Shown here: piece after piece, positions 13,175-41,610 of the stretch
How positions within the stretch are numbered: the first letter of the stretch is position 1
How the letters are laid out: each line of letters begins with the position of its first letter
NCBI GenBank assembly: GCA_017499595.2
Contig: CM039001.1
Location: forward strand, 868,001-932,000
Direction of reading: 5' to 3'
Origin: Psilocybe cubensis
Lineage: Eukaryota
Length of the DNA: 64,000 bases
Notes under the pieces: model-generated
What the model was told of the DNA's origin: nothing
Database searches by the model: none
Seen by the model: the letters and a program-made list of their open reading frames with translations, nothing else
Made by a program: the position numbers and the translations under genes

Positions 13175-14291
13175 CTACAAAATCGACCGGAGAGATCTCA
13201 AGCCTACATACATCACCAGCATCATCGACACCGCAGAGCCAACGACCACGACGAGGCCGAGCACCATCATATCGCGCGTCGAAATCTTCGCCTCGCCCGC
13301 ACCCGCCGCGACCGCCTGGTGGTGGTGCGGCTGCGCACGATGCGGGTGCCTGTACCCCAGACTCCTTGAGCGGTGCCGTGCACCCGCACCCGCGCCCACA
13401 ACCCCAGCACCCGTCGCGGTCGTCGTGGCCGCAGGGACGTACGCGGTGCTCGCCTCGGACGGCGTCGGACTGCGGATCCATTTGAAGCTCCCGAGGTACG
13501 CCAGCCCGCCTGCGATGACGCTGCCATTGCGCTGCGTCTTTGGCGGGCGCGGCGAGCGCGAGTGCCGCTGCCCCGCGCGCCGCTCGCAGCGCTCCTCCGC
13601 TTCGGTGCGGTACCGCGGCTTGCTGGTGCGCGCAGGAGGGGCACCGAAGAAGGACGACGAAGAGGAGAACATGCTGCTGTCCGCGGCGTAGGGGTTCGCG
13701 CGTGGTCGTGGGGTGCGCGAGCGCGTGTCGCCTGGTGGGCCAGGGCTCGCGGACCGTGAGCGATCGCTGAGCGCCTCGACGGTCTCGCCGTCCGATCCGA
13801 CGATCACCGTGGGCGTCTGTGCGCCGGGCCCGCCGTTGTAGTCGTCGTCGTCGTCATCCTCCTCGTCGGGGTTGTGGTCGCCAAAGTGGCGTAGAGGGCC
13901 ACCGCTGTACGCGCTGTGGGAGTTGGAGTAGGGATCGGGGAGGACCTGGCGCGGTGGTGGGTGGACAAAGTTTGGGTTGCGCCGGTGGAAGTAGCCCGTC
14001 TCGGGGATGACGAAGGACGGCTCGGACAAGATCGCGGGGGTGTAGGTGCGCGGGATGTGGACGCGCCGTTGAGGCTGCTGCTGTTGCTGCTGGGCCTGTG
14101 GGTTTGGGACGAGGGGGCTTATCGCTGGGGCGATGGCGGCATTTGCAGCTTGTGCCTGTGGATCAGTGGAAGTGGCGGCGTAGGCGGAGGAGGGCGGGGG
14201 CGTGGGTGGCGGGGACATGTACGAGTGCGCAGAGGCGCGAGATGAGCCTGCTGCGCCATCCTGCGCTTGTGCTTGTGCTTGTGCTTGCTGT

Positions 14292-14322
<31 letters not shown>

Positions 14323-14443
14323 CTGCTTCTTCTTCTTCCCTGGAGAGAACCTCTGGAGATGCAGACATGCAGAGACCGAGTTTATTGTGGCCCTTCATCG
14401 GATGCTTGCAAGAGCGACATCGAGGAGCCTTTCGCGAGGACAT
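13175..14443 (-). CDS. Uncharacterised intronless protein: N-terminal CxxC-GH-C zinc-knuckle, poly-Q/disordered middle, C-terminal transmembrane tail
   Basis: Long ORF with ATG at 14443 (MSSRKAPRCRSCKHPMKGHNKLGLC), a poly-Q/QA tract and a hydrophobic end MMVLGLVVVVGSAVSMMLVMYVGLRSLRSIL*. Confidence 0.8.
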
Positions 14444-15209
14444 TGCTAGTAAATCGGCAGAAAGACTAGTTGGGAGTTGACTGGAGAGGAATAAGGAACG
14501 GTGAATGCTAACAAATTGCAAATTGCCTCCTTGGATGTTATCGCCTTTTGCAGTCTCCCTTCATATCATCAATCTTTCACCTCTGTTGTAATATTATTAC
14601 TTGTCCTCCTCGCTGTTGGCATTGTTACCACAAAAGCGTCTCCATCCTCTTTTTTATTTTTTTTATCAAGGCTCTTTGTCTTTACAGGCATCGATAGCCA
14701 CAGGACGGCAAACAGATGCAGACAAATTAAGCCTTCACACGGGGGGCCACCTTCTAATTCATCTCCTGTCGAGCTCTCCACACACCATCATCAACGACTC
14801 GTCGGGTGTGCGCTCGACTCGACGCCCGCGAGCCCTCTGCCCACCCAGGCCAGGCGCACTCGATGTGCACGCTTTGACTTGTGTTATTATCGCCCTAAAT
14901 AGGCGGACAATGCGGGAAAACAAACTCGATCCCCTTTCGATATATATCCCCGTGCAGCTCTGTGCGAGCCTGAGAATTACAGTCTCGATCAAGCCAGAAT
15001 TCACACTGAGTAGCTGTGTCTTTAGCAGTAGAGCTTGAAGCAATACTATCGAGGATCAGTTTAGCACTGTAGATCCAAGTTGGCATCTGTGGTGGAGATA
15101 ATGATAGTAGACGATGGATGACATAACCCGTTCCAGACAAAAATAGTTCCGAAAACGGACACTGTGTTTCCCGAAACTTGCGTTCCACCACAACTCGTCC
15201 ATACAAAAT

Positions 15210-15862
15210 ATGTCGCAATACATCGACAGAAAAGAGGCCATGAAGTCCTACAGGCCCAAAGCAGGCGTAAGTCTCTTCATCCTCAACCATACCATGCCAT
15301 ATCCTAACTCACATCCCACTGTCCATGCGCACAGACAATGTCTCCCGGGCTCAAACGCGCACGCGAGCCCTACCGCGTCAAAAACGCCATCCTAGGCCTC
15401 TTCCTCGCCGCATTCTCAGTCGGCGTCTGGGCCTACTCCATCAGCGCCGTCAAACAGGACGTCTTTGACGATATCGACGAAGAGGCCGACGCGCTCGGGG
15501 CGACGGGGACAGGGACGGGGCTCGGTGTTGCGGTGTTGGCAAAGGCTACTGAGGGCAAGCATGCGGGTGCGGGTGCGGGTGCGGGTGCGGGTACCAGTAC
15601 AAGTGTTGATGCGAATGCGAATGCGAGTGTGAATGTGACGGGGACAGCCTCACCGACGTTCGCTGCGTCCCACGCAACATCTCCGCTACCGAACCCAGCC
15701 GCGTCGACAGTGCTCAGCGAAGTGTCCAAGTCCAAATCGAAAGGCCTGCTCACGCACCTCGACAGCCGACTACCCTGGCTGCTCGATCCGCAAAGCAAGA
15801 CGCTAGTATGGGGCGCGCCGCCCGTTGACAATGTGGGCAAGATGGTGTGGCGGTCGTCATGA
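15210..15862 (+). CDS. COA3: Cytochrome c oxidase assembly factor Coa3 family protein
   Basis: MSPGLKRAREPYRVKNAILGLFLAAFSVGVWAYSISAVKQDVFDD matches the Coa3/CCDC56 pattern. Exon 1 is 15210-15266, and intron 15267-15334 (GTAAGT...CAG) keeps the frame. Confidence 0.85.
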
Positions 15863-16318
15863 GTTGAGTCGAGTCGAGCGAACTAGTTGAATCAGGTGTC
15901 GAGTGACGGCTTGGATGGTGTGGTTGGTGGTGGAATGTGTGCTATAGATCCAAAAATAATCATGTACGAAAACATCGCTTTCATTTGCTCTCCTCTCCAT
16001 TACACCTGTTCATTCCTTACACTCGCACCAAAACAAACTTGAAAAAAAGAGAGAGAAAAAAAAACGATAGCATATTGCAACGACGAGGATAACAACGACA
16101 GCAAAAGAAAGAAAGAGAGAGAGACATAACCAACAAAGCAATAACTATATAGAAACACAGACAGCAGACCCAAAGTTCCCCACATACACTCCTAGAAAAG
16201 AGAAAGGAAAGAGAAAGAGAGACATAGACAGCAAAGCAAAGCAAAGCAAAGCAGACAGCGATCATCGATCCACCCCTCCTTCCTCTTTTCCAGGTAAACT
16301 CATATCTCGCATCTTGCA

Positions 16319-18549
16319 TCAACCAAGCCCCCAAATCCCCGCCTTCCGCACGCCCTCCACAAGCGCATCCACATTCCCCAACATCGTACCCAAAAGCTCC
16401 TTCTTCTCCTCCGTCGTCTTCCAACACCCGCCCTCCTGCTCGCGCCGCTTTTTCTCCTTCTCAACGGCGGTGGTGGTAAGACCAAGTGAAAGTTCCAGCT
16501 CCTTCTCCCTCTCCTTTTCAAGCTCATTTTGCCTACGTGCGATCACATCCTCTGAATAATGCTTCCCGAGCCCCGCAGCGCTCGACTGGTGCCTATGATG
16601 CCCATGTGTATACGCGCGCGCATTAGGCAACGGCGGCAAAGGCGGCGGCGTCCCCATCCCCATCCCACTCTCATCCCCACTTCTCCTTGAACGCATCTGC
16701 AAACTCGCACTCGCCGACAAACTCTTCTTGTGCCCACCCACAGTCGTCTTCGCCGTGGGCGTTGACACAAGCGCAGGCTGTGGCACCGGCGACGAGGACG
16801 ACGGTGCATTAGGCTTCGTCGGGCTAAGCGGCACATAGTCCACCTCCTTCCTCAACATCATCATGCTCCGTAGCTGCGGGAACCTGCCCCCAGCAGACGG
16901 AGATGCAGACGCCGACGCCGACGCAGATCCAGGTGAATCGGACAAAGGAGGCGACGTCGGTGGGGACGTGCTCCCCATCGCACTCTGCCTGTTCGTAATA
17001 GGCGTCAACATCCTCTTCGCAGACACCAACTTCGGCAGCAGCGCCGACCCCGACGTGGGCGAGGACGAGGACGACGAAGACACTTTCACGGGCGACGCGG
17101 CTTTGGATCTATGCGCGTGTGCCTTGCTAGGCGACGTGCCAAGCATCGACGACGCGTTCGTCGACGCCGACATGCTAGATGAGAACGAATGGTTCGAGCT
17201 CGAGCTGCCCGACGTCGAGCGGGACGCCGCAGACGAATTGGACGACGCGGACGTCGAGAGCGCAGCCGTCCCCCCCGTCTTGGCTGCATCCACATCCACA
17301 TGAGTCCCCGAAGGCGTCGGCGATGACGTAGCCGCAGACGACGTCGAAGTTGAGGGGAAGATCGACGAGCCGAAGCGAGAAGAGTTGGATGCGGAGGGCC
17401 GCATGGGCGTCGCGTTGAGATAGGGCTTGGGCTTGGGTTTTGCTGACCCTACTCCGGACGACGCGGACCCTGGCGGGCTGGCCAAGGAGCGTGCTGGCGT
17501 GGCGGGGGCTGTGGGCGGTGGCGTGGGCTGGGTCGATGTGAGCGACTCAAGCGACGGTGTCTCATCGAGGAGGTAGAAGTATAGGAATTCAAGGCATTTC
17601 ATGCTAGCAAAGTTATGAGTATAGGCGCAGATAGAGTGTATATGACAGCTAATCAGAAGCGTACCGGACTTCGCGCGGTGTGCCTGCGCGTTTGAGAATT
17701 TTGACGATTGATTGGACACCGTTGGCTTCTTCGAATGCGCGCAGGGCTTTCGAGGAGTCGACGAGGATGCATAGGAGCGTGTCGAGGACGATTGACGTCA
17801 GTGGGGGAGTTGTGCTTGGCATCGCTTGGGTTGGAGCCGGAGAGTCTGATGACGATGACGACGATGAAGATGAATTGACATGACGCGAGGCGAGGAGGAG
17901 GTCTAGCAGAATCTAGGACACGCGCTATGTGAGCTGGGAGAACCGCGAATGGAACGTGTGAGTGCCTCACCTCGAGAGCTGAGCGTCTGCCAAGATAGTG
18001 CTTGCTTGCCTCGTGGTTCAACACGACGCCCTGTATCAGCGAGAGCGATAGGGAAAGTTGGGCGACGAGTTCCTCTGCTTCTGAGGCACGGTTGTCTTTA
18101 CGGCGGCTGGTCAGTAGTCGGATGTAGAACATCAAAGTGGCACGCACCATCCGCCGACGACTTGCTCAACAAGGCCTCCAAACGCGCAGTCGCGGTGACT
18201 ATCCACGGCAAAAGATGCGAGGGTACTGCACGGCTGTTACACGAGGACAAAGATGCACGATGCATGCGACTCACTATTGCATTCAAAGGTATACTGCAGG
18301 GCCATGAACGCATCCTTGGCCTGCGCGTCGTTGGCGGTGTCGAAGCACGCCTGGGCGAGCTCTCGTTCGAGGCTCTGGAGGGCTTTCATCTTGGATTTAA
18401 GAGTGGAGCGCGAGGAGGCGAGCTATATGCGGATCGGATGAGCTATCTATCTACTCGGCGCTGGGGCAAAAGATGAACAAGGACCATACCTCGTCGAGGG
18501 CGCGCTGTAGACGGTCGCGCATGGGGTCGATAAGCTCTGCGAGTTGCAT
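16319..18549 (-). CDS. cdc14: Septation initiation network protein Cdc14 (S. pombe-type, not the phosphatase)
   Basis: Spliced product contains LIQGVVLNHEASKHYLGRR, LDTLLCILVDSSKALRAFEEANGVQSIVKILKRAGTPREVRMKCLEFLYFYLLDET and C-terminal KTTEEKKELLGTMLGNVDALVE. Large Ser/Pro-rich insertion. ATG at 18549 or 18522. Confidence 0.8.
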
Positions 18550-19023
18550 AGCGGAGAAAACGGGGGGACGGCAGAGGCAGACAGCGGGGAGGACTGGGAG
18601 GGATATGGGGGCAGGAAGGAGGACTAGAAGAGGCGTGAAGAATGTTTGCGCATTCTTCTATTTCTGGTTGGATTTGAAACGCGTTATTGTTGTTCAAAGG
18701 TGCACTCCCTCACGTGATCGAGTCAATCCCTTCTTTGTATTTGATTTTCAGCTGCCAACTCCGACGCTCATTTTGTCTTTCGGCCTCGCTGCCTGTCCTC
18801 CCCATCGTCAAATTCGCGCCTTGTTCCTGTCTGAGCACGCCTTGTCGTCGCTCTCAGCGATGGTCACCCATCCACGAGGCATTTTTCCTCTCACGACTAC
18901 CCGGCAACGGCAACGGGGCACGCCCAAGATAGGACTTGAACGGTCCGCCGCGGGCTAAATCTTATCTCCCTCTTTCTCTTTCTCTTAACACCACCAGCAT
19001 CCCGATTTTCAGACCCGTCCGCA

Positions 19024-20375: not shown

Positions 20376-20705
20376 ATAACAACGAAAGGAAACGAAAGGA
20401 AGAGAGGATCTAGATGGATGTGGTTTACTTGTATGTGTGAATTGGCATCATCTGTTTCTACCTTTTTTTTATTTGGACAAGGGTGTCCTAATGCATCCTT
20501 ATGGAGAATGATGTTTTATGATATTCAAGTTAAATGCTAGCGCAGATTATATGTATAGATGGCAGAACCTTTTATCCTGCTTTTATGGTCCATCCCGTTG
20601 CAGCTTGTAACAAAAGGGTAACACTTTACAGAACGACTAGGAATGTCCAGGTTTTTGAGAGATACAAGTACATACACACATACATACAACACTTCAAAGC
20701 CACCC

Positions 20706-23108
20706 TCAAGCACCCAACCCGCCAAACACAATCAACTTGGTATTCAAATACTCCTCAATCCCATGCCCGCCCTCTCTGCCCAGCCCGCTCTCCTTGATCC
20801 CGCCGAACGGAATCACAGCCTGACTGATAATCCCCGTGTTCGCACCGACCATGCCCACCTCAAGCCGCTCCGCCACGCGCCACACCCGCCCGACATCGCG
20901 CGAGAAAAAGTACCCCGCGAGCCCGACGTCCGTCGCGTTCGCGAGGCGGATGACCTCCTCCTCCGTCTCGAAGCTGCATAGCGCCGCGACGGGCCCGAAC
21001 GTCTCTTCTGTGTTGATCAGCGCGTCTGTTGGTACGTCCGAGAGCACGGTTGGGAGGAAGAATGTGTTGGGCCCTGAGGTGTCGGAGGAGGAGGGGGCGA
21101 GGACTTTGCCGCCTACGAGGACCTGTGCGCCTTTTTGTACCGCGTCGTTGACGTGCCGCTCGACTTTCTCGACGGCGCGCGCGTGGATTAGAGGTCCATG
21201 AGTTCTAGAATATCCAATTATACGAATTGACTTTATGAGAGAGGGATGAAGGACTTACACTCCCTCTTCGAGCCCGTTGCCCACTTTGAACTTGGCCACG
21301 CGGTCGGCGAGACGCGATGCAAAGTCGGCGTAGACAGAAGAGTGTACATAGATGCGGTTAGCGCAGACGCATGTTTGCCCGCTGCCTCTGAATTTGCAGA
21401 GGATGGCGGCTAGATTTTAACTAGGTTAGTAAAATATAAACTTTATCTTGCAAAATACAAACCTTCTACGGCTTCATCGATATTCGCATCGTCGAAAACG
21501 ATGAATGGCGCGTTTCCACCGGCTTCCAGCGAGACTCTACATGGTATAGAGGGTGAATACTAGAACTATGACGCGAATACACGCGTGCAAAAACTTACTT
21601 TTTCAATGTGGTCGAAGCCAAACCCGCGAGCAACTTTGCAACAGGCGTAGACCCGGTGAAGCTTACCTTCTTCACCGCCTTGTTCTCGCACATCTCTTTG
21701 CCGACTTCGATGACGTTCTTCTGCGTAGTGACGATGTTGATGACACCATCTGGAATCCCAGCCCTCTTTGAAAGCTATTGTAATCCAGTAAGTTAAACGG
21801 TTGTCAAGAACGCGTACAAGGCATTTACCTCAGCGAGTGCCAGAGCAGAGAAGGGTGTCTCGGGAGGGGGCTTGATGACTGCTGTACAGCCTGCAGCTAA
21901 TGCCGCACCTAATTTGCGGGTAATCATGGCCGACGGGAAGTTCCATGGGGTAAGAATCGACCTAGGTACTCGTCAAGACGGCGAATTGCATTCAAGTGAG
22001 CTAAAACATACACAACACCTAAAAGACATCAGAATGATTTTTGTATGGGAGTTGAAGACGCGTACCAATTGGCTGCTTGATTACTATATTGCGGTTTCCA
22101 GGTGTAGCTGCGGGTATTTGTTCTGTTTGAAGTGGATGAGAAGTTGGACTATCCAAATAATATTGAGCACCAACCTCCGTATGTACGGACGGCCTCCTCA
22201 GCTATTGCGGGAATCAGTATTGGAGATTTGTTTATTTTAGCCAGAAATAGTTATTTACCAAACCACTGGGATGTTTTGAGTAAGAAGACACGCGATCATG
22301 TTGAGAAATAAGCTCACCTCAAAGAAAGAGGCACTGTAGGTATTTTCGCCCTAACGTATGTAAGTCCTGACGCGTCTATTTGGAGAAGTGGATTATTTTT
22401 ACCTTCCCCTCTGCGAGAGTTTTGCCATTCTCAACGGTCTGGTGGAACGCGCCCTTAGTTACTCTCATGCATGACGTCAAAGTTATGGAAAGCGTACAAT
22501 CAGACGGCCGAGATCATCGTGGTGCTCCTGCATGAGTGCAAACAGCTTGAGGAGGAGATCATGGCGGTACTATTAAAATGAGGGAATGTGTTAACAATTC
22601 TCGAGTGAAGAACGATAGGTGAAGGATGCGTGCTTTGGCTGTGGTCCTGCTCCAGGATGGGAACGCTTTGGCTGCAGCTTCAATGGCTTCCTTGGTTTCG
22701 GCCAAGCCCATTTCCGGTACTGTCCCAAGCTCCTCATTGGTAGCAGGGTCTGAAGGGTATCCCTCAGTACTATGCACCTCCTGGAGTGCGACGGACTAGA
22801 AGGATGCGTGAACTCACTCGTAACAGTGATAGTATCCCCACTTTTTGCATTTACCCACTTTCCGTCGATCAAGGCTTGAAATTTAATCAAGCTGGGGTCT
22901 TTCAGGCCGAACTGGATACCAAAACACGAGCCATCAGTCGCCCGTGTTCAAAACGATAGCAGGCAAGTAGCAGACGAACCACTGATGGTTGTGAGCTTGC
23001 CATTCTTTGTAAACGGAGTTGGTAAAGATTGATGAGTTGCCCTGAAGCTACCAGAGACCGCCTCTGGAGAGGGTGCGAAGCAGAACGTAGAGGAATTGGC
23101 AAACGCAT
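20706..23108 (-). CDS. UGA2: Succinate-semialdehyde dehydrogenase (ALDH family), probable mitochondrial presequence
   Basis: [95 protein letters not shown]. Arg/Ser/Leu-rich N-terminus and many introns. Confidence 0.92.
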
Positions 23109-24931: not shown

Positions 24932-25060
24932 AGACCTACATTATCACCCTTATTTCATAGTTGTTATAATCTATGTTCTTGTATTCTTTGACACCATATT
25001 CATTGTATTTTGAAAAATACGATACCACTTAGATGGATATGGCAGCCGCGCGTCAGTCAC

Positions 25061-25068
25061 ATCACGTG
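25061..25068. promoter_or_regulatory. ATCACGTG E-box (bHLH site) upstream of the GCP5-like gene
   Basis: About 60 bp upstream of the ATG at 25128. The same 8-mer recurs in four other 5' intergenic regions (18711, 29507, 45217, 54845). Confidence 0.5.
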
Positions 25069-25127
25069 ACCCGTTATGCCCCATTCAATTCTCCACTCAG
25101 ACTGGCCAGTGTCATTTCTAGATTGTC

Positions 25128-29621: not shown

Positions 29622-32284
29622 ATGTCTGCTGGACAGTACCCTCAGATAGAGCAAGACTCTCTGGAACCACCCAGTGGTAACGAGCTTCCAACCTACGACG
29701 ATCTCGCTCAGCAGAACGGTCCTAATTCAAGGTATAAACATCCTATATTGTTATTGGTACATGGACAAAGAGTTTCTCACAATTAACCAAGATTTGGGAG
29801 ATGGAGAGGGTGGATAGAAAAAAGGTTCACCCCATTGTTTTTATCCGACTGACCACACTATCTTACTCCACCACAGAGCGGCAGAAAGGTATGCAGATCT
29901 TACCCAGGCAGAACGAGAGAGACGACGAGAACGTGGGTGGGGGAATGACACAGAGATTCCGGTCAGCAGAATACGCTAAGTCATTCCTAATTATTCTAAT
30001 GTGTTTCTATCAGGTCGTGGAGCCCATCCCCTCAATTACCAATTACCCTTTTGCACCAGGTGGACAAAGTCTGCCCCTGCACATCCAAACCGCTAGTTTA
30101 ACCGTACAAGATTCCCCTCCTATCTCTAGTGGCACACCTACCCATATACCCCTCCCTTTTGTCAGCCAAACCATCGAACCTACGCATCTCAAAATCAACC
30201 ACTTTGGTTCTCGCTTTTTACCACATACAACATCTCAAATTCGATGCGTCCTGCCTTTAATGACAGATAAAATTCTACTTATTGGCCATGATGATGGTCT
30301 CTCTGTACTTGATATGTTTCCGCAGGAATGGACTGAAAGTGGAGACATGACTACAAAAGGTCCTGACGAAGCTCAATGCCGGCCTGTGTGGCGAGGTGAA
30401 AGGTTAGATTATTTTACGGGTAGCACAGTTGGATTAACTTTGCTTACTTCATGAATCTAGTGTATATCAAATGACTATCCTTGAATCAGAGGATCGAGGA
30501 ACTGGAACCCCTCAAGGAGTTGTTTTGGCCGTAGTTGGCCCTTCCCAAGATGCCGTATCCGTAGGGAAGGACGTAGAAGCTTTACGGACAGCACGTATGT
30601 ACAATTTGGGTAGCTTGATCAGTCTCGCGAGATGGACAATTGCTCAGAAGGTGAGACAAACACTTACACCTTTACTGAAACAGTCGGCTCAAAAGGTTGG
30701 TTAGGGGGCGCAACCTTTGAATTTGCGCTATATGGGGATCACACAGGCTCCTAGCACACCATCAAAAAAGCACAAAGCTCATGGCAGTATAGCGCGTAAT
30801 CTTAAGGCATTATCAACCGGCAACCCTCCGTTGGAACCACCATCATCATATCAAACATTTCTATCCCCTACTGGAGCATCAGGACCCTCCCTTGCTAGAG
30901 GTCCGAGTTCTTTATCTGAACGCAGTTTCACGAATAGATCGGTGTCCGACCAATCTACTTGGGACGTCGTTGACGACCTGCCTCTACGGTGGGCTACGGA
31001 TTTTGTTCCGCTTGCCTCACCCGGTTCTCGACTAGTTGGCGTATCAGTATTAGGATATGCAACATGGAGCGATGAGAATCGTAAGGGAACTGGAGGTCAG
31101 CTTCTGGCTATCACGACGAAGAACAATATCCTTCTTTACGAGACTCCCAAAGGAGAAAGGGCGTACAGATTCGTCAAGGTCGACCATTTCGGGTTTTTTG
31201 ATTTATGTGTATTGGAATCTAATGCACGTTCTTTGAATAGGAATTCTATACGCCGTTACAACCACGGAATATTGCATTCATTCAACAGTCAGTGTCTGAA
31301 AGCAGAAGCCCGTTGGAAGAGAGAAGTCCAAGTCGCTTCCATTCTCACAAAAGGTCGGAAAGCGGTGGTGCAATCAAAGGTCTGGTCAATGGTGCTTCGT
31401 CGCCCATGCCTCTAAGCTACGGTACCCACCTCAGTCTTTTCGTCATCTTTGACAAAAAAGCGGGATGGATTCGGCTTGCAGACTCTGCAGTTGGTGAAGT
31501 AGAGCTAGGAGAAGACGGTGGACCCCAGCCTGCAGGCCTCCTCTACTCACGAGATACTTTTGCCTCCAATATCAGCGCAACTACCCTGCGGCAAAAAGCC
31601 AGGGTCTCTTTTGATATTCGCGAGTCTGCAGCAAAGTGGCTTTTGCCCATACGATGTACACTTCCTGTACCAGGTCAGGACGCTGCGAATATGCAGCCGG
31701 TTTATATCCTCACTCGAGGGAAACGGACGCATATTTTACCCTGCCCTTTGCCAACTCGCTCCTCTTCCATACCCCCACTACATGCTGTCTTCTGGAAAGT
31801 GCCTCCTAAACATGTCTCTGCGCGTCTTATTCCGGGTGGGCACGATCCTACGATGGAACCTCCAATGTTGCAACTAATTGCTTTTGGCGAAAATGGAGTC
31901 GAAATTCAAGAGATGGGTATATCATTTATGAGCTCCAAAGGGAAAGGCCGCGCATACCCTGAAGAGTCCCTATGGGCGGAAGAGGATCTCGGGGGTGAAA
32001 CTGGCTTTCTTAGTGTCGGCGGGAACTGGGACAGAGTGGAACAGATATATGGATCACAAGCCCTTTCAAGCGCATCTTCCATCTTTTCGGTGGATACTAT
32101 GGATTCTGCAGATATTCATGCACGCCTAAAGAAAGAGGAGGGTATCTATGGTTGGTGTCGGAAAGGCCTAGAGGATTGGAGAGTTTTCTGGGTTGGAGGA
32201 TCTAGTCATTATCAGGACTGCGAGCCGACTCGAGGTGCTTCACTTAACTATATGAATTCGACAGCGAGTAGCATGTACTTATAA
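29622..32284 (+). CDS. Conserved hypothetical protein, possible CNH-like beta-propeller
   Basis: Multi-exon ORF chain. N-terminal LPTYDDL...SRFGRWRGWIEKRAAERY, then HFGSRFLPH...ILLIGHDDGLSVLDMFP and YRFVKEFYTPL. The domain call is tentative. Confidence 0.75.
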
Positions 32285-32829
32285 GTTGTAAGTTATTCTT
32301 TGCTGTTGGACTTTGTTGTATGAATCCCAAATGTACTACACATCATGTACAAGCGCCTGTTAATCCTAATCATCGAACAATTTCTATCTACAACAAAATT
32401 GCTCATTGAAGTACGCCTTCAAAAATCAGCGTCTAACAAACTGAATGAGATTGGTTAGCGATCATTTGATTCGAAGGTTTATTGTCCATGTGATTGATTC
32501 TACACTTCGTTAGGTAGGAATAAAGTGGGGGAGAGATAGGGATATATGCATGAAAGCAAAAGTAATAAGTGATAATAATGTACATGAAAATCGTCAAAGA
32601 AAATATCAGAGGGGCTACAGCGGGGACGATGAAATGGTGTCGGGATAATGAGGGATGACGGGGTGTGTGTCGTGTGGTATCGTGCTTGATGTTGATGATA
32701 AATGATGTGGGAGGGTTCCGAAAACAGGTAAGCTGTCCGTGATGGTTAATGCAAAAAATGTAACAAAAAAGCAACATAAGAGAGAAGTTCAATTCATGAT
32801 CATTAAATAATGCCTGTCAAGTCGGAATG

Positions 32830-35800
32830 TTATCTGGTCGGTGGACGTGAAGAAGCTTTGGGATATGTTGCGCTTGTGTTGGCGCCACTACTGGGTGCAG
32901 CTGCATTCAAACGGCCCATAGAGGCAGATGGTGGTTTCCGAATGACAACAAACGATTTCTGGGGTTGAGGTGTGTTTTCCGTATTGAGTCCTCCAAGCTC
33001 TTCGTCTACAGCCGCTTTTCCCAAGTTCGGTGTAGATGCCTGACCGCCCGCCATACTATGCGGTCGGTTCCTTCTTAAGCGGTACCAGGGCTTCCTCTTC
33101 TTATGATTCTGCTCATCCCCCGAGTCGTCATCGTCATCCACATCGTTGTCACCGACGACAAATTTATGGGCAGCCATAGCCTCTGGTGGGCGCAAGAATG
33201 TGTCTTCTGAAACATGTGTTTGTCTCGGTCCAAGCGACGACTGGCCTAGGTCCTGTTGTTGCTGGAACACTCTCGACATTGACTGAGAAGATGCCGGTCC
33301 ACTGGGTAAATAATCGATAATGGCTGTTTGAGATTTGGTGCGCGTGTGAACAGGCATCATAGCGCCTGAGGGTAACCCATTGACACCGACGGCGACTTCT
33401 ACATTCGCAACCGAAAGAGGGATGTTCTCATCGCTATCCATACCCCTTTCATAGAACAATGGAGAACCACCAAGTGCAGATGTGCTTTGGTTTCCAACCG
33501 GTTGTACTTGGCTGTGTTGTCCAATAGATGGAAAGGTGTGGGTTGAGCCGGTGTTTATTGCATACGGTGTGTCGATATGAGCCCTGCCACCCCCAACGCG
33601 AGAAAATCCGCTCGTTGGAACGCTGTTAGACATATTTGATGAAGGAGAAGCCTTCGGTTGCGGGGTGTGACCTATCTGTGGTACATTGCTGACAGGTGTG
33701 TATCCCGACGCGGGTCGAGGGAATGGTTGCCAGGCTCCCATGATATAACCTTCATCCTCGCTATCCACAAGTTCTTCCTTATACGGCCTATTTGCATGCT
33801 CCGGTCTCAAAACGGATGGAGGTTGTGAATTGGCAGACCCCTTCCTTGACTCAGTGTTCAAGAATCTGGGTGGGGTGGATGTTCCATCGATAGGTTGAAT
33901 CCCTCCAACTGGCGGCATATATGACGACAAATCGGAGTCCCTAGTCTGAATTTGTGACGGGCTCGTGTTGTTCATTTTCCGTCTGTGCGAGTGGCGACGC
34001 CTACTATTTCTTCTGCTCCGTTTCCTTGACCCGCAGCATCCCAAAAGGCCACAGGCTCCCAATAAACCGCTGTCCACGACATGTCGACTGCGATCAAAAC
34101 CAACTCTTCCAACAATCCGAACAAGAGCCTCGAGAAGTTTTACCGCCAACATGAAGATAAGGGCAAGATAAACAAGGGCAAGGATAATCAAAATTCCATA
34201 TGCGACCCAACCCCCTGGACCGGGACCGATTGAAATCTAGAGAGTCAACATTCAATGGATATTGAATTTTTTAAAAGACAAGAGAAAGAATACGCACAGC
34301 CTGAGTTAAAATAACCAGCAAAACGGCGATAACAATTCTGGCAACGCAGAACAAAAAGCTAATCAGACCCATGCTTGCTCCACTACCCCATGGCAGCCAT
34401 ATACTCGTCACCAGAGCCGAGATCACTTCAACAACGAGAATGATGATGGCTTGAGCAGTGCCGCTTTTCTGACCTGCTCCAACTGTAACACCGAATGCAA
34501 TATTTGTAGCAAAGAATAAACTTGCAAAAAGCTGTGAACCATGCCGATAGTGGTTATATAATGGTCCTAAAGAGAGTAGTGTCTTTGTCTCGTCATAGAG
34601 TTTGTTGGTAGTAGTGAAAGTCACTCGAATAACCAGATGCGCAGGGACGAGAATCGAGAATATGACAAAGGAAAGCGCGGCCAGGACAATTGAAGAAGTA
34701 CCAACAACGTCCTTCAACGTCATTTGATAACAGGAAAACACCGTCACAGGCAAATGAAACAAGACAAGTATTCGAACAAGATTTCCATGTAGCACGCTTC
34801 CATGAAATGCTCCAAAGTCTGAGCGTAGACGCCACCAGGATCTGTGAGAGTTTATGCCACGCTCAGAAGAAACACCGGAGCTGGGTAAAGGTAATGAGAA
34901 TTTTGCGTTAGGAAATTTACCACTCGCTGATAGGCCAGGAGCTGAGCCAGTTAATGATTTGCTTTCATCAATTGCTGAAGGCAATGCAGCGTCCCCTAGT
35001 TCTTTGCTTCCGAAAGCCGGGCTGCGTGACCTGGTTAAACGGTTCATGCCGGTGCCATGTCCCTGTCCTCCTCCAGAACCACCAAACAGACCGACAGTAT
35101 AATCAATTACACATATGAGAATAGAGATGACTATAGCAGCTGCTATGATCCCGAGGAAGATAATCATGCAAGTTGGGAAAAGATCTTGGGGACGAATGCC
35201 AAGAGTGTAAGCAAACGATGAAATTCCATGGGTGGCGTCAGGTGGCAGGGAATAGATGACATTAGGAACTGATGGGTCAATGAAAATAGGGGATTGACTG
35301 TCTGAAAGCTGATCTGCAAAGCCATCTGGAGGAGAGTAGCGGCTTGTATTTAGTGGATCCCAGTGATGAGACTGTGACGATTGCGTCAAAGAGATATCTG
35401 CAGTGATAGAGGACGGTAAACGTGAGAGAATAAAAAGGGGCAGAGAAACAATTACTGTAAGAAAGAGTTGACCATGCGGTCTGGGTAAGTAGAGGGTCTG
35501 AGGCAAGATGTCATGAGGACGAAAATAGACCTGAGAGCTGGGAGTAACGTACAAACAAATTGAGGCCACTCTACTGCCACCATAGCCAGGATTGCACACC
35601 ACTGCGTATGAAAGATAACATCTCGCATGGAAGGTGTGCCTATTTTTTGTTAGTTAGATATCTTGTAGACTATTGTAAGAGCCTTACAAAAACGCATTAA
35701 TGCTGGGCTGGTAGCAAGGCGCTCTCCACTGATAGCACTTGCCAAAATATAGCCAGCACTTTGTGCACGAGACCATAACCCTCGACCAGGGCGGGTTATC

Positions 35801-36496
35801 CCCCTGTTCCAAGCAGATACGATTCTGGCGATCCCGACTACAATCCAGTAAGCTATTGCAAGCCCAACGGTTGACCAAAAGATGATTTTTGCGTTCCCAT
35901 AAGGCGAGTTGACCCTTGGATTCAGTGGAGTGATCAGCATATCAAGACAGAGAAGTTCCTTGCCAAAAGGATCGACAGCACGTAGACGCGTAATTAATGT
36001 AGTAAGTTCCCGGTCCCGACCCCAAGGGATGGTTGACGAAAATGCGAAGGGTCCAGAGGCGATCGGGCAGAAAGTGCCATCCAATGAAGTCAGTTCGGGA
36101 AGGGGGCTTTGAGGTCGCATATTCTGGCATAGATAAGAGCTGTTCGACCACGCATTGAGCGTAAGAACAGATGAGGTGGTGAACAGAGTGGCTACAAAGT
36201 GGCATCAGAAATAGAGTCATGCATTAATCGCAGAACATACCTAAACTCCCGCTCCGATTTGTAGAGCCTACAATATCCTGCGGACTGTTTCCGATGACCG
36301 TGAGGTTTAGATATCTTCCAAATTCTTCATTCTGGAGAACCTGTCCGTAGACAGTGTTGACATCAAACTTTTGGGAACTTGAGCTCTGAGAATCATCGAA
36401 GCAATCTTGGATAGGTATAGATATGGGGTCTGCGATGACAGAAGGTATCAGTACAAAGGTGATATAAAGCAAGACTGGGGGTAGATAGACCCTCAT
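32830..36496 (-). CDS. TRP-like (Flc/Pkd2 family) polytopic membrane protein
   Basis: Signal peptide MRVYLPPVLLYITFVLIPSVIA, a Cys-containing luminal N-domain (FCPIASGPF), QWCAILAMVAVEWPQFVYP, multiple TM helices (LSLGPLYNHYR, GAGQKSGTAQ) and a long disordered C-tail. Confidence 0.8.
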
Positions 36497-36635
36497 CGTA
36501 GCACACGACGACGAGCCCTCCACGGTGCGTGCCGGACGAAACAAACTTTGGACAAGGGCAAGTGACGCCGAAATTGAACTCGTGTGATTACATCATACAA
36601 CCAATGTCAAGTGCTCGGTGTTCGCCCATCACGGC

Positions 36636-38847
36636 ATGTTACTCCGTCGTGTATACACTCGTTCCCTCAACAGTCGCGCTTTTCATGATTTGAGAACATA
36701 TCAGGATGATCCACGGTGGCCGGGATGGCAAGTAATTATTGGAATAGAAACACATGCGCAGATAAAGTCCCGTCGAAAGCTTTTCTCAGGTACCTTTTTT
36801 ACCAGTTTGTACATTTTTTGTCTGATACCTGCTTGCAACAGACACATTCACTCCGGAGGGTGATGAGCTTCCAAACACCAAAGTATCACCATTCGATGCA
36901 GCATTTCCTGGAACTCTTCCTGTTAGTTCCATCTTGGAAATAAGCAAACAGGAAACACTCAATTGTTTGTAGAAAGTCAATCCAAAATGTGTCGACTTGG
37001 CCATTCGTACCGCGCTGGCTTTGAGAAGCAAAATATCTATGCGCTCATCCTTCGACAGAAAGCATTACTTCTACTCAGACCAGCCATTGGGTTATCAAAT
37101 CACTCAACAATACTGTGAGTATGTTTGATTTCAGTATCGTTGAGGCCTTGGTATTAATTGGTCCAAATATCTTACCAGCTCCAATTGCAACGCATGGGGT
37201 ATTGGAACTAGAAATGCCCAGAGCAGCACCAATCAAAGTTCGCATCAAGCAGATTCAATTGGAACAAGTGCGTACTGACGTCTTTAATGCAACTCAAGTG
37301 TTAATTGCAGTTTCAGGACACTGCAAAATCGACGTTTAATCCGCGTTTGCAGAAATCATATATCGATCTCAATAGAGCTGGTGCAGGCCTCATGGAGATT
37401 GTCTCAGAACCCGACCTACGGTAAATCGTGTCCCGGCTTCTTATATTTTCTTTGTTTACATTCCTCAGTTCTCCAGAAGAAGCTGGTGCTTATGTTCGCA
37501 CCTTGCAATCTGTTCTTCGCGCTGTGGGATCAAGCGACGGAAATATGGAACAAGTACGGTAATTCCACCTGTTGTTCTATATCTTTCAACATTTATATGT
37601 AAACAGGGATCACTTCGTTGCGATGTTAATGTCTCAGTGAATAGGAAAGGCGAAGTTCCTGGGACCCGTTGCGAGATTAAAAATTTGAATAGTGTGAAAT
37701 ACATGATGGCAGCTATTGGTATGGTGTTTCTTTTTGTTCGATGCTTGACACTCATTCGTCATATAGTTCACGAAATTAAACGACAAACCCAATTTCTTGA
37801 CACCAACCCCGGAGCTACTGTCCCACAGGAAACTCGTGGTTTCAACGAAAATACATTCGAAACATACCGGCTTCGATCCAAAGAGGATGCTCCAGACTAT
37901 AGATACATGCCGGATCCGAATTTGGGCGTCCTAGTACTGAGTCAGGTACTAGCCTTGAACTTCGCATGTTGTTTTAACTGCTGACATATATTACCGGGAC
38001 CCTCGCAGGCCCGGATTGACGATATAAAAACAAATTTGCCGTCCCTGCCTTGGGATATTCGCTCGCGGCTAGTATCTAAATATCCGTCACTAAATGCAAA
38101 GGAAAAGAGCCTGAATGTGCTTATTAATGTCAACAGTGGCAAAGAAATCGGATTCGATGGTGAAAATAGCGGCGGTGCGGTTGAATACTTCGAGGAGTTG
38201 TGTCAGACGCCTGTTACAGGCGGAAGCAGACCAACCGTGCGAGATCCTGTGGTGTTATTGAATTGGTGCGAGCCGTTGTCCTAAATAAGTAAAATAACTA
38301 CCTCTGATACTCTTCTAGGCTGACACACGAACTACTTGGACAATTAGCTTCACGAAAGGAAACATTTAGCGATAACCCGCTTTCAGCCAGTCAATTCGGG
38401 GAACTTGTTGACTTAGTCCAGGATGGTACTATCACTGGTAAACTTTATCTTGCAACCCCGTGTCTATTTTGCAATCTCTTACTGCGCGCAAAATATCCCA
38501 CAGGTACTTCCGGAAAGCACCTTTTACGCCACATGCTTGCCAACCCGTCCTCTCGCCGTCCCAGAGAAATTGCCACAGAACTCCAACTAGTTGCCTTAAC
38601 CTCAACTTCTAGTTCACAGTCTACAACCTCGTCTGACTCTTCGGTCATTTCTGAACTCGAAGATTTGTGTCGCTCAGCTGTATCCAATTTACCGTGCGAA
38701 GTGGCTGCTCTTCGGGCTGGAAATAAAAATGTGCTGAATAAAATTGTTGGGTATGTAATGAAGAAAAGCAGGGGTCGGGCAGATGCTACCGCAACTCGGG
38801 AATTGGTGGAGAAAATGGTTATGCAGGATGGCTGCAAATTAACGTGA
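36636..38847 (+). CDS. PET112: Mitochondrial Glu-tRNA(Gln) amidotransferase subunit B
   Basis: [126 protein letters not shown]. Confidence 0.95.
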
Positions 38848-40488
38848 TTCCACTACTACATTCTTCTGGATACAGTTGTGACCCTGTACAAATGTGCATC
38901 ATCGAGTACGTTACAGGTCTGGGTTTGTGTAGACGCCGTGTTGACATTACCACAGACACTTATTATTATTTAACGTTTCGATTTCAATACCCATACTACA
39001 GTTGGCATTCACTTTCTTACGGAGCGATTTACCTACTTTCAGGCCATCTCAGAGACCCGTGCGTACCCATCGGTGCCGTGAACGAACAACGCAAGAAAGG
39101 ATTACCACCGCCGCTACCTAGCCAAACTCGGTTAGCTAACGTCAGTAACTTTATTTAATCCCCCACCCCCTTTCTTTTTGTTCCCGTAGACTGTGATGCT
39201 TGCTGGTGCAGGAACCCACATCAGGAATTTCCACTAGGAGAGCCGTTTGGCGACCCTTCTTTTCCACCGCCATGTTTCGGGAAGGGTTTTGACTCTATCA
39301 GACTTTTGACTCATTCTTTCTTCTGCATACTTACGCTCACAGGTTACCTTGAATTCGCGGAGATCCCCTTCCCTTTAACTATCCTCTTCTCGTGGCGTTT
39401 TCTGGAGTGTCCAACGTGTACTTACTTGTCCACAAGTAAATACCCATCGGCTGGATGGGGGTGTCAGGGGTAATTCTCATTCCGTGTGTAGCATTTAAAG
39501 CTTGACCACCCATCTTAACGGCAGATGCAGATCTTTGAGATTTTGTTTCTTATACTCATTTGCCTTATATAGGCACGGGAAGCAAAGCTTCAGAATACAT
39601 CTTGAGAGTATGGGCTACTGAAACAGCCAGATAAATACGTGAATTTTTCAGTAATTGGGACATGCCAGACTTCGATTAGAAACTAACCGCGTTCTTGGAG
39701 GTGCGCATGCGTCGCGGCACGGCGGGGCAAGGTAGGGATGCTTACTTTTTCAAACATGCTGCGCTTCATTCAATTGCTTCAAAGCCTGTAACCATCTACT
39801 ACGCCTGGCGCGTGAAGATAGATGCTAAGAATTTGCATATGCAGATCTTCTGTGGTGATTGATGTCAACGGATGATGCCATTTAATTTCAATCCTCAACA
39901 ATCGCCATCCACTTGAACAGTCTTTAACGTGGATCGTATCTGCCCACCTACTAGATTCAACGTCAATGCTAATTGAATGGATTATGGCGACTTTAATTAA
40001 TTAATAAGTCGTGAAGAAGGCAGTGGCGATTTGAGCGGCTTCCATGCTACGACTCTCGACACTTTCGAGGGATGCCTCATTTTCCTGTAAGCGGTGCCGC
40101 GCGGTTCCGGTGCGAAGCTGAGCCTTCTGTTAGTATAAATTTTACTTGAGAATATATCTAATTCAGTAATAATGTATTGGAACAGTAACTAAATTCATGT
40201 AGTGACGTAGTCTCGCATCCGGAAACCCTGTTGTACAAGTGAAATAGAGGGGGAAATGCTGTCAGGTAGCGATACAGTCGGAAGGAAGGTGAAGAGAGTA
40301 AAAAAGATGAAAATTACAAAGGACTTATAAACGGTCATAGGATCCTTCTGGTGATAAGTATCAAGATAGAACCAGTGTGCAGAGGTAGAAAGTCAAACAA
40401 CAGAACAGAGAATAGATACAGAGTATTACAGAGTTCAATCCATGATGTCCGTGAATCCCAAATCTGTAGAAAAGAAATCCGTTTTCCA

Positions 40489-41610
40489 CTACGAAAAGGC
40501 TAACCCTGCCCAGGTCGTAACTGCTCCTATAACCGCCGCGCCAGCAGCAGATTTGAGTGTAGAACCGCCCTGACCGGCTGCAACCTTTGCCTTTGCACTT
40601 AGATATGCCTTTCGATTTTCCTTTTCTATTTTCTTGAAAAGCTCATCTACCGCACTTTCATTACGTCCAAGAATAACAAGTGCTTGTGGATCGTTTTCGT
40701 CGTCGCTCATACTTATGGCTGTAGAGAACTTGAGCGAAGTGGCCTTTGCCACTACGTCCGCTACATCTGCCTTTGGGATGATGTAGATGGTGGCAGCGGC
40801 ACCATCGGATAGTTTGGATACGAAAATATCGCGTTCTGCTGCACTCATAGTGCGGCCAAGTGGTTGGGGTTGCCGTACAACATTTGGTGGGCGGTGGCTT
40901 GACAGGCTCTCGGTGGTGGTTAAGTGCGAAGGATCGCTGATATAGGAAAGGTCCGCGGAAATGATTTCCTCCTCTTTGGTCGGTGGAGTGGAGCTGGAAG
41001 TGAAACTGGAAGCGGGCGTAGGTGGAATGAGTGTACCTGGCATTGTAGCTCGAGGACCTTTCGACTTGTCCCGGACCGGCGAAGGGGTTGCAATGGTCTC
41101 CTGCCATCTTACTATCCGAGCTGTTTTGCCACTTTCTGCGTCACTTTCTTCATCCCGGTCACCAAATATCCCTGGTTCAAGTAGGCGCGCTACAATTTCG
41201 CTCGAACTTGTTGAAAGAGAGAGGAGGCTGTCGCTCTGGTTAACTGGTGGTTGTGCAGAGAGGCGACGGCGATTGCGGATGAATGTTTTTGCCTCTTCTT
41301 CACTTTCGCGCTCTAGGGCGCGTCCAGGAGATGCGATTGCCATAGATTCCAACGCGTCTGATAAATGCCTCTCCAGTGTGTTCCCCCTATTTTCCGCCCC
41401 CTGTGCTCTCGTCGGCGATTCCGTGAAGGGACATCCAGACCGTGGATGTCCCGCCCTCGGTCGTTTACATTTTGAACATTGGGGCACCTTGCGTGGTGTT
41501 GCAGATGGTGTCGTGCTCTCAAGGTCGTCAACTGTCAACGCGCTGTTTTTGCTACCTACTGAAGGTGAATTCTGGACTGAGCGCGACGCGGATCTAAGAG
41601 CATATGGCAT
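40489..41610 (-). CDS. Uncharacterised intronless protein: CxxC-GH-C zinc-knuckle, disordered middle, C-terminal transmembrane tail
   Basis: 373-aa ATG-started ORF containing RKVPQCSKCKRPRAGHPRSGCP and ending SAAGAAVIGAVTTWAGLAFS*. Confidence 0.85.
   Translation of the reverse strand: MPYALRSASRSVQNSPSVGSKNSALTVDDLESTTPSATPRKVPQCSKCKRPRAGHPRSGCPFTESPTRAQGAENRGNTLERHLSDALESMAIASPGRALERESEEEAKTFIRNRRRLSAQPPVNQSDSLLSLSTSSSEIVARLLEPGIFGDRDEESDAESGKTARIVRWQETIATPSPVRDKSKGPRATMPGTLIPPTPASSFTSSSTPPTKEEEIISADLSYISDPSHLTTTESLSSHRPPNVVRQPQPLGRTMSAAERDIFVSKLSDGAAATIYIIPKADVADVVAKATSLKFSTAISMSDDENDPQALVILGRNESAVDELFKKIEKENRKAYLSAKAKVAAGQGGSTLKSAAGAAVIGAVTTWAGLAFS

What the first reader, a model, noticed from the sequence alone, without database searches (positions are those of the whole stretch)
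13175..41610. Two unrelated-looking intronless genes share a zinc-knuckle plus tail-anchor architecture: candidate undescribed membrane-tethered CCHC protein family
Seen: ORF 13175-14443(-) has RKAPRCRSCKHPMKGHNKLGLC and ORF 40489-41610(-) has RKVPQCSKCKRPRAGHPRSG-C, giving consensus RKxPxCxxCKxPxxGHxxxG(x)C with 11 identical positions in ~22. Both genes are single-exon in a region where nearly all other genes have introns. Both have long S/P/T-rich disordered middles and end in one hydrophobic helix at the extreme C-terminus. I see no similarity outside the knuckle. Established: C-terminal single helices define tail-anchored proteins, and nucleic-acid-binding plus C-terminal TM designs exist at the inner nuclear membrane (S. 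pombe Bqt4, mammalian MAJIN). Inference: these are ancient paralogues that tether a Zn-knuckle (DNA/RNA or protein binding) to a membrane, possibly derived from a retrocopy or a transposon domain.
Basis: partly seen in the sequence, partly recalled or inferred. Interest (0 to 1): 0.7.

Follow-up and report, generated by a model that had tools for sequence, protein, structure and literature searches.

The report
Mushroom zinc-knuckle proteins with hydrophobic tails
Two real single-exon mushroom genes belong to an unnamed family that joins a small, positively charged zinc-knuckle-like motif to a hydrophobic C-terminal tail, a layout that could tie DNA or RNA to a membrane, though neither the location nor the target has been tested.

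Summary
Both ORFs and the shared motif are real. The motif is C-x2-C-x6-H-x4/5-C, not the retroviral CCHC spacing, and has no Pfam match. Its Gly/Ala tail is near-universal but only weakly hydrophobic. Gene A (13175-14443) is a small family (9 sequences) linked to B in four other genomes, is transcribed, and ends in a stronger hydrophobic helix. Paralogy is likely: B orthologues carry A-type knuckles, a Fomitiporia paralogue is intermediate, and three of this genome's four knuckle genes lie within 137 kb, pointing to local duplication rather than retrocopy. The knuckle does not always come with a tail (Amanita two-knuckle proteins, a fourth gene here). Best reading: tail-anchored ER/nuclear-envelope proteins presenting a basic knuckle to nucleic acid (about 0.35). 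B also has an RVxF-type PP1-docking match, kept in Agaricales but in only 29 of 93 divergent members. No function was tested. New variant of a known design; interest 0.45.

The parts
13175..14443 (-). Gene A, single ORF, 422 aa (P0001)
   Evidence: orthologues; RNA pieces; 11 of 14 listed strain differences synonymous
14369..14434 (-). A: basic knuckle, residues 4-25, C9-x2-C12-x6-H19-x5-C25
   Evidence: C/C/H/C pattern in 8 of 8 A sequences that have an N-terminus; His-to-Cys spacing 2-5; 7 K/R and no D/E in residues 1-26
13958..14047 (-). A: family-specific conserved block, residues 133-162 (SEPSFxIPETGYFH-type motif)
   Evidence: nine-sequence alignment; no Pfam match
13787..13816 (-). A: second conserved block, residues 210-219 (TPTVIxGSDG-type)
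13211..13267 (-). A: C-terminal hydrophobic helix, residues 393-411, followed by 11 residues with net charge +2
   Evidence: KD 2.52; summed biological-scale value -0.95
12328..13174 (-). A: transcribed 3' flank (probable long 3' UTR)
   Evidence: run X1 piece 12328-13432; contigs do not show strand or ends
40489..41610 (-). Gene B, single ORF, 373 aa (P0002)
   Evidence: 104 homologues; synteny
41431..41499 (-). B: TPRK site and basic knuckle, residues 38-60, C45-x2-C48-x6-H55-x4-C60
   Evidence: C45, C48, G54, H55, C60 invariant in 30 of 30; C45 156/156, C48 156/156, H55 160/160, C60 159/160 of ungapped rows among 185
41257..41277 (-). B: basic cluster, residues 112-118 (NLS-like or RRxS kinase-site-like; label by inference)
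   Evidence: R115 28/30, R116 24/30, S118 21/30; 77 of 105
41092..41118 (-). B: Trp motif, residues 165-173; fits the RVxF consensus here, core [IVLM]xxW is more widely kept
   Evidence: consensus from PMC6406801
41002..41043 (-). B: conserved MPGTL-type linear motif, residues 190-203, meaning unknown
   Evidence: 98 of 105
40579..40842 (-). B: folded alpha-beta-alpha-beta-beta-alpha domain and long helix, residues 257-344
   Evidence: pLDDT 87-96 over the core; no clear fold match
40492..40551 (-). B: Gly/Ala-rich C-terminal hydrophobic tail, residues 354-373, no charged residue after it
   Evidence: 105 of 105; 91 of 97 divergent members

Best explanation
A and B are members of one Agaricomycetes family whose ancestral layout is: basic zinc knuckle, disordered linker with short motifs, small alpha/beta domain, C-terminal hydrophobic tail. 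B keeps the whole layout. A arose by local duplication, has largely lost the domain, and gained its own conserved block and a different tail. Most likely working: the tail inserts after translation into the ER/nuclear-envelope system (weak hydrophobicity and no basic residues after it point to the EMC route for B), the knuckle binds one zinc through C/C/H/C and grips DNA or RNA with its basic face, and the linker carries phosphorylation and docking sites that switch the grip. Shown: genes, conservation, fold confidence, tails, linkage, transcription of A. Inferred: zinc binding (about 0.85), paralogy (0.8), membrane insertion (A 0.8, B 0.6), nucleic-acid ligand (0.55), nuclear-envelope location (0.4).
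For: C/C/H/C essentially invariant in B and present in 8 of 8 A N-termini; knuckles carry 7 K/R and no acidic residue. Tail in 105 of 105 B hits, 91 of 97 divergent domain-bearing representatives and 8 of 8 full-length A sequences (the ninth, P0111, lacks a C-terminal tail and comes from a 965-base contig). B-bodied proteins at B's syntenic position carry A-like knuckles (L011, L013). The second unit of Fomitiporia model P0229 has an A-like knuckle, a clear B-domain homologue (probability 93%, E 2.8e-7) and a strongly hydrophobic tail (KD 3.25). A and B orthologues lie on contigs of equal length in 4 of 4 named genomes that gave an A hit. A fourth knuckle gene, found by genome-wide search, lies 109 kb from B (chance about 1%). 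Sorting rule for weakly hydrophobic tails: PMC10200711, passages. Design precedent: Bqt4, PMC6379675, two passages.
Against: No experiment or structure shows a ligand or a location. B tails score unfavourably on a summed biological hydrophobicity scale (mean +2.6, query +3.1; crude, no position terms), as do five of eight A tails (+1.4 to +4.2). The knuckle occurs without a tail in five Amanita proteins, in Botryobasidium P0209 and in the fourth gene here. Unplaced short ORFs have knuckles as close to A as B's is or closer (P0226: 14 of 17 identical to A against 9 of 17 for B), so the knuckle alone does not prove paralogy. The trace of B's domain in A rests mainly on one orthologue and a region picked by eye (P0107, probability 13%, E 0.002). 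Linkage in related genomes reflects one ancestral event, not five. Transcription of B was not tested.
Confidence: 0.35

Rival explanations
1. Membrane-tethered scaffold: the tail anchors the protein (ER, mitochondrial outer membrane, lipid droplet or peroxisome) and the knuckle and alpha/beta domain bind proteins, not nucleic acid.
For: Many short conserved linear motifs in the linker; the N-terminal half of the knuckle resembles LIM-type protein-binding fingers (PINCH LIM, E 0.0016 summed over two partial matches); A tails end with basic residues (+1 or +2 in 7 of 8), a feature of mitochondrial tails in PMC10200711.
Against: The knuckle is strongly basic with no acidic residue; the fourth gene pairs it with an AT-hook-like basic N-terminus (label recalled); B has a conserved basic cluster.
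Confidence: 0.25
2. B is a membrane-targeting subunit of protein phosphatase 1: its Trp motif is an RVxF docking site that brings PP1 to the membrane and to whatever the knuckle holds. Compatible with the best explanation as an added step.
For: Residues 165-169 fit [K/R]x(0-1)[V/I]x[F/W] (PMC6406801, passages); 94 of 105 close homologues match against 20.8 expected from shuffles; 29 of 93 divergent representatives match in the linker against 4.9; P0105, which lacks the Trp motif, has a strict match elsewhere, and P0106 a near match; precedent for a tail-anchored RVxF protein in PMC12313075 (passages).
Against: The 105 are related, so they count as few events. In 61 of 93 divergent representatives neither consensus form is met, while [IVLM]xxW is kept in 51 of 93 (13.1 expected), with a further hydrophobic residue four places on, which reads as an amphipathic helix rather than an extended docking strand. 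No match in the three Polyporales or the Fomitiporia sequence checked, nor in 9 of 9 A sequences.
Confidence: 0.2
3. B's tail is not a membrane anchor but a glycine-zipper helix that packs against a partner or a copy of itself; B is a soluble, probably nuclear protein, and A gained a true anchor separately, so the shared architecture is only apparent.
For: Tail 57% Gly+Ala with near-invariant Gly, Leu and Ala positions, more sequence constraint than a plain anchor needs; the two tails share no sequence; tail-less relatives exist.
Against: The segment is uncharged, about 20 residues long, at the extreme end, and preceded by basic residues (mean 2.4 K/R in the 10 residues before it); divergent members keep hydrophobicity while losing the sequence (KD up to 2.4); weakly hydrophobic tail anchors are a known class.
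Confidence: 0.15
4. A and B are not paralogues: a small mobile knuckle, perhaps from transposon proteins, was recruited twice into unrelated tail-bearing proteins.
For: Family profiles align only at the knuckle; similar knuckles end several unplaced short ORFs and P0233, whose preceding stretch recalls pogo-type transposase ends (recalled, no database match); MULE transposases can end in a zinc knuckle (PMC3441728, passage).
Against: Tight linkage, the Fomitiporia intermediate, A-like knuckles in B orthologues and the weak domain trace; ESM feature search with A returns the same three basidiomycete clusters as B (0.81-0.83, lead only); no transposase domain in A, B or 29 knuckle-bearing relatives scanned.
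Confidence: 0.15

Closest known systems
Bqt4 (S. pombe) / MtgA (A. nidulans), tail-anchored inner-nuclear-membrane proteins; MAJIN (recalled only)
   Same: N-terminal binding module, long disordered middle, single C-terminal helix (Bqt4's C-terminal helix sets its location: PMC6379675, two passages).
   Different: No KilA-N match in A or B; a small Cys/His knuckle instead; an extra alpha/beta domain next to the tail in B; location untested. A likeness of design, not membership.
Retroviral-type zinc knuckle zf-CCHC (PF00098) and transposase C-terminal knuckles
   Same: Four Cys/Cys/His/Cys ligands, Gly before His, basic flanks.
   Different: Six residues between the second Cys and His instead of four (canonical spacing recalled), a conserved Pro in the loop, variable His-to-Cys spacing (1-9 across relatives); no Pfam match for 13 of 13 knuckle segments.
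Treble-clef fingers: LIM (PINCH) and ribosomal uS14
   Same: The CxxCxxP opening; A has C-x2-C-x12-C spacing like uS14.
   Different: Scores weak (E 0.0016 from two partial matches; E 0.41); no second CxxC pair or second zinc site.
Membrane-bound PP1-interacting proteins with an RVxF motif (LAP1B and AKAP149 seen in a search listing; LpPIP seen as passages)
   Same: RVxF-type motif in a disordered region of a protein with a C-terminal hydrophobic tail (B only).
   Different: No sequence relation tested or expected; motif not kept in most divergent members; binding untested.
PG1857-type protein of unknown function, PDB 2guk
   Same: Best fold match to B's domain: Z 6.9, rmsd 2.1 over 60 residues; Foldseek E 0.053.
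   Different: 5-11% identity; Z below the level at which the tool separates relatives from a common small beta-alpha-beta-beta arrangement; a designed mini-protein scores 6.0.

Membership tests
zf-CCHC retroviral-type zinc knuckle (PF00098) | C-x2-C-x4-H-x4-C spacing (recalled) | tested here: not met
   C-x2-C-x6-H-x5-C in A, C-x2-C-x6-H-x4-C in B
zf-CCHC retroviral-type zinc knuckle (PF00098) | Pfam profile match | tested here: not met
   No zf-CCHC model listed for the two proteins, 30 B orthologues or 13 knuckle segments
Zinc-binding knuckle (broad sense) | Four conserved Cys/His ligands | tested here: met
   AlphaFold pLDDT 79 over residues 41-60 of B
Zinc-binding knuckle (broad sense) | Binds zinc | not testable with these tools
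   needs metal analysis
Tail-anchored membrane proteins | Single hydrophobic helix near the C-terminus, short tail after it (gene A) | tested here: met
   KD 2.52, 11 residues after; best window of the whole protein. Two orthologues have a longer, two-part hydrophobic end.
Tail-anchored membrane proteins | Single hydrophobic helix near the C-terminus (gene B) | tested here: inconclusive
   Position right in 105 of 105, but KD mean 1.67 and unfavourable summed biological scale; no TM predictor was on hand
Tail-anchored membrane proteins | Membrane insertion with cytosolic or nucleoplasmic N-terminus | not testable with these tools
   needs fractionation and topology assays
Bqt4/MtgA family | KilA-N/APSES-type N-terminal domain | tested here: not met
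   No Pfam match; the genome's two KilA-N matches lie elsewhere
PP1-interacting proteins | RVxF consensus in a disordered region (gene B itself) | tested here: met
   residues 165-169; pLDDT under 50 there
PP1-interacting proteins | Motif conserved across the family | tested here: inconclusive
   94 of 105 close homologues, 29 of 93 divergent representatives
PP1-interacting proteins | Binds PP1 through the motif | not tested
   The genome's PP1-like gene is split into short exons, so no whole PP1 chain was on hand for a complex model
KH domain | KH fold with GxxG loop | tested here: inconclusive
   Weak Foldseek rows (best E 0.048, rmsd about 9; E 0.14); no GxxG between helices in the B alignment
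LIM / uS14 treble-clef fingers | Second Cys pair or second zinc site | tested here: not met
   sequences
Retrocopy | An intron-bearing parent gene | tested here: inconclusive
   All four knuckle genes found in the genome are single open frames, as are B relatives; exon-wise search could miss a split parent; poly(A) remnants and target-site duplications were not looked for
Domesticated transposon protein | Transposase, gag or integrase domain, or repeated copies | tested here: not met
   No such Pfam match; B has one full-length match in the genome, A two

The most novel reading that the evidence does not exclude
Mushroom-forming fungi have a lineage-specific nuclear-envelope tether: a tail-anchored protein that holds chromatin or RNA through an unclassified C-x2-C-x6-H-xn-C knuckle, is switched by a CDK-type site beside the knuckle, recruits PP1 through an RVxF motif in Agaricales, and has an undescribed alpha/beta domain; duplicates such as A re-route the same knuckle with a different tail.
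Probability: 0.12. Interest if true: 0.8.

Novelty: new variant of a known kind. Interest (0 to 1): 0.45.

Why it matters
Membrane tethers for chromatin or RNA are fast-evolving and hard to find by homology. A family conserved across at least four orders of mushroom-forming fungi, absent from Pfam, with an invariant metal-ligand pattern, a new small domain and a terminal hydrophobic helix is a concrete, testable candidate for such a tether. The knuckle also defines an unclassified motif that recurs outside this family. If B proves soluble or a generic scaffold, the finding is still a new protein family but of modest interest.

Tried and rejected
Pfam: no match over a cut-off for A, B, 30 B orthologues or 13 knuckle segments. 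ESM Atlas: only unnamed basidiomycete clusters; structure rows all TM 0.30 or less by query. Fold searches of full-length B and of the domain alone: no Foldseek match at E 0.001, best Z 6.1 and 6.9; absence of a match does not show a new fold. Homodimer model of B's domain: no answer, score 0.00, no evidence either way. Search of the own genome with B's tail found only B (one candidate scored), so a link to Bqt4-like tails could not be tested; the two KilA-N matches showed no such tail in the stretches held. A hidden frameshift in A relative to the P. cyanescens orthologue: not supported, one frame aligns end to end. Run search: no holder on record as RNA; two guessed RNA runs proved spliced; the DNA run had no cover over 11161-15066, which proves nothing. 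Profile comparison of 30 B sequences with Amanita and A domain regions was not significant; only the 187-sequence profile gave weak signals. Paper searches with no hit: tail-anchored + zinc knuckle + fungi; Agaricomycetes + tail-anchored + zinc finger; six locus tags of family members; Laccaria id in the one supplementary file held for PMC10282164 (other supplements of that paper, and JGI ids that differ from the tag searched, may hold the family). PMC8380732 was not held. Earlier scan notes: none by sequence or words, one unrelated by place. No tree was built: 25 columns are too few.
Full report
Observation. The shared motif is there, with 11 identities by direct count; BLASTP of the pair gives one significant stretch, 12 of 27 identical, E 1e-4. 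The spacing is C-x2-C-x6-H-x5-C in A and C-x2-C-x6-H-x4-C in B, which differs from the retroviral knuckle (C-x2-C-x4-H-x4-C, recalled), and no zinc-finger model in Pfam matches. The window is on contig C4 of a 46.6 Mb, 21-contig genome; the nearest named homologues are from Psilocybe cyanescens (75% for B, 44% for A). Neighbours are ordinary fungal genes: Ofd1-like, COA3, aldehyde dehydrogenase, Mgm101, a gamma-tubulin complex protein, GatB, poly(A) polymerase, eIF3d, ING (16 of 30 ORFs scanned matched).

Are they real genes? For A, RNA run X1, which shows GT..AG and CT..AC joints in neighbouring genes, gives unspliced pieces over 12328-13432 and 13621-14255; X2, of the same study, covers 13814-14255. 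That is 893 of 1269 coding bases; the tables were cut, so the knuckle-coding 5' end was not seen covered. Of the 14 listed differences between X1 and the window inside the ORF, 11 are synonymous third-position changes (40 of 253 rows were shown).

Family B. Named members come from Agaricales and Boletales, Polyporales and Hymenochaetales. In an alignment of 185 sequences C45 and C48 are present in 156 of 156 ungapped rows, H55 in 160 of 160 and C60 in 159 of 160. The 29 of 105 hits without a knuckle are shorter and begin downstream of it or inside it, as truncated gene calls would. In 29 metagenome loci one open frame spans the match in 27 (seven touch a contig end, and short contigs could be transcripts); in the longer loci the neighbours match exon by exon while B does not, and the neighbourhood is shared with the window (GatB, TRP-like and poly(A) polymerase genes in L010, L011, L013, L016, L021, L023). 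AlphaFold gives a confident alpha-beta-alpha-beta-beta-alpha unit at 257-344 (pLDDT 87-96 in the core). Its best structural neighbour is a protein of unknown function, 2guk, at Z 6.9, rmsd 2.1 over 60 residues, within the range the tool calls common; KH rows are weak. The linker holds conserved short motifs: TP(x)RK just before the knuckle (72 of 105), a basic cluster (77 of 105), a Trp motif, MPGTL (98 of 105) and R[ST]MS (99 of 105). The tail is the most hydrophobic 19-mer and ends within 5 residues of the C-terminus in 105 of 105, but is weak (KD mean 1.67), 57% Gly+Ala, and unfavourable on a summed biological scale.

Family A. Three searches gave nine sequences: A, a paralogue on contig C11 (237 aa, one open frame, hydrophobic C-terminus) and seven from other sources, the named ones being Psilocybe, Agrocybe, Gymnopilus and Galerina. 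The search scored only 8000 word-sharing candidates, so the range may be wider. They share the knuckle, a 30-residue block around 133-162, a second short block and a hydrophobic end. C/C/H/C is found in 8 of 8 with an N-terminus, with 2 to 5 residues between His and the last Cys. Tails vary: KD 2.5-2.7 in the three Psilocybe-type proteins, 1.6-2.0 in the other five.

Are A and B paralogues? Family profiles align only at the knuckle (probability 95%, E 2.4e-8), and the knuckle alone is not diagnostic: an unplaced 52-residue ORF matches A's at 14 of 17 positions against 9 of 17 for B. Four other lines favour paralogy. First, proteins with a B body at B's syntenic position carry A-like knuckles (L011, L013). 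Second, Fomitiporia gene model P0229 contains two knuckle units, probably two adjacent genes run together (its DNA was not seen); the second has an A-like knuckle, a homologue of B's domain (probability 93%, E 2.8e-7) and a strongly hydrophobic tail. Third, A's closest orthologue P0107 has 29 residues that align with strand 1, helix 2 and strand 2 of the domain (E 0.002, 0 of 40 shuffles; probability 13%; region chosen by eye); this is weak, and in A itself the stretch is degraded. Fourth, position: A and B orthologues lie on contigs of identical length in 4 of 4 named genomes, with near locus tags in two, and a fourth knuckle gene found by genome-wide search lies 109 kb beyond B on the same strand; the chance that one of the two genes outside the window falls so near is about 1%. 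A damaged B-like copy lies just upstream of B in locus L008. Local duplication of an already intronless gene fits better than retroposition.

Does the knuckle always come with a tail? A 13-sequence knuckle profile against 1.84 billion representatives gave 163 hits at E 0.001; of the 150 listed, my local profiles class 109 as B-type, 2 as A-type and 39 as other. Among 97 with B's domain, 91 have a terminal hydrophobic segment. But five Amanita proteins have two knuckles, a probable divergent domain (E 0.008) and no tail; Botryobasidium P0209 and the fourth gene here (184 aa, single copy) have none either. Several of the others are unnamed, unplaced ORFs; one recalls the end of a pogo-type transposase, from memory only, with no Pfam support.

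Mechanism. Shown: conserved ligand pattern, basic surface (7 K/R, no D/E), folded domain, terminal hydrophobic segment. From established knowledge: tail-anchored proteins with weakly hydrophobic helices go to the ER through the EMC or to mitochondria, and positive charge after the helix disfavours the EMC (PMC10200711, passages); B has no charge there, which points to the ER/nuclear-envelope system. Bqt4 shows that a C-terminal helix can fix a chromosome-binding protein at the inner nuclear membrane (PMC6379675, two passages). Inferred: B presents a nucleic-acid-binding knuckle from that membrane, regulated at the adjacent TPRK site (CDK-type consensus, recalled). I give this 0.35. A protein-binding scaffold (0.25), a soluble protein with a glycine-zipper tail (0.15) and independent recruitment of the knuckle (0.15) remain open.

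A lead that weakened on testing. B residues 165-169 fit the PP1-docking RVxF consensus (PMC6406801, passages), and 94 of 105 close homologues match against 20.8 expected. Among 93 divergent representatives only 29 match in the linker (4.9 expected), whereas [IVLM]xxW is kept in 51 (13.1 expected). The older element looks like an amphipathic helix; PP1 docking may be an Agaricales feature or a coincidence (0.2). Binding was not modelled, since no whole PP1 chain was available.

Novelty. No Pfam family, no named Atlas cluster, and no paper in three searches or in the one supplement held for a review of fruiting-body genes (PMC10282164; passages and supplement search); the library lacks most subscription papers. 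The design is known, the parts are not: a new variant of a known kind. Interest 0.45: a solid, testable new family with no functional evidence yet.

Noticed in passing
L054:5035-5589(-) = G000:C4:1018034-1018588: Fourth knuckle gene, 184 aa, single open frame and single copy: AT-hook-like basic N-terminus (label recalled), C-x2-C-x6-H-x9-C knuckle like the second knuckle of the Amanita proteins, no hydrophobic tail, no Pfam match.
   Followed up: partly
L002:1393-2106(+) = G000:C11:1302983-1303696: Shorter paralogue of A (237 aa). DNA just downstream matches pieces on C4 and C9 at 86-94%, a patchwork that suggests recent fragment duplication.
   Followed up: partly
P0150, P0157, P0162, P0193, P0196 (Amanita): Tail-less family with two knuckles and a probable divergent copy of B's domain carrying a long insertion.
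   Followed up: partly
window 13001-14000: Gene A lies in the most GC-rich kilobase of the window (0.67); third-position GC is 0.75-0.90 over codons 121-400 against 0.45 in B, with poly-Q/A expansions absent from the P. cyanescens orthologue.
   Followed up: no
window 12328-13432: The RNA strain differs from the window by 30 substitutions and 29 gap letters here, mostly in the 3' flank, far more than in the gene at 5945-8777 (none in the listed X1 pieces): a divergent allele.
   Followed up: no
window 14444-14500: A pyrimidine tract ending in TAG two bases before A's ATG looks like a 3' splice site, so a 5' UTR intron is possible; not seen among the listed joints.
   Followed up: no
window 21197-21259: An AT..AC joint in both RNA runs, with seven other letters between the sides, in a minus-strand gene region whose other joints read CT..AC; may be an alignment artefact or a micro-exon.
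   Followed up: no
L008:1-560(+): A second, damaged B-like copy with an in-frame stop lies directly upstream of the intact B homologue.
   Followed up: partly
P0206, P0220, P0226, P0230, P0235, P0239, P0233: Unnamed ORFs of unknown organisms, six of 46-62 aa ending at or just after a very similar knuckle; perhaps last exons of larger, possibly transposon-related genes.
   Followed up: partly
window 29738-34236: Several long ORFs near B (29738-32284 on +, 32830-34236 on -) have no Pfam match yet are conserved and syntenic in distant loci.
   Followed up: no
L058:997-1986(+) = G000:C1 near 3020188: PP1-family phosphatase with a long Ser/Pro-rich N-terminal extension starting Met-Gly, Ppz-like by recall.
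   Followed up: no
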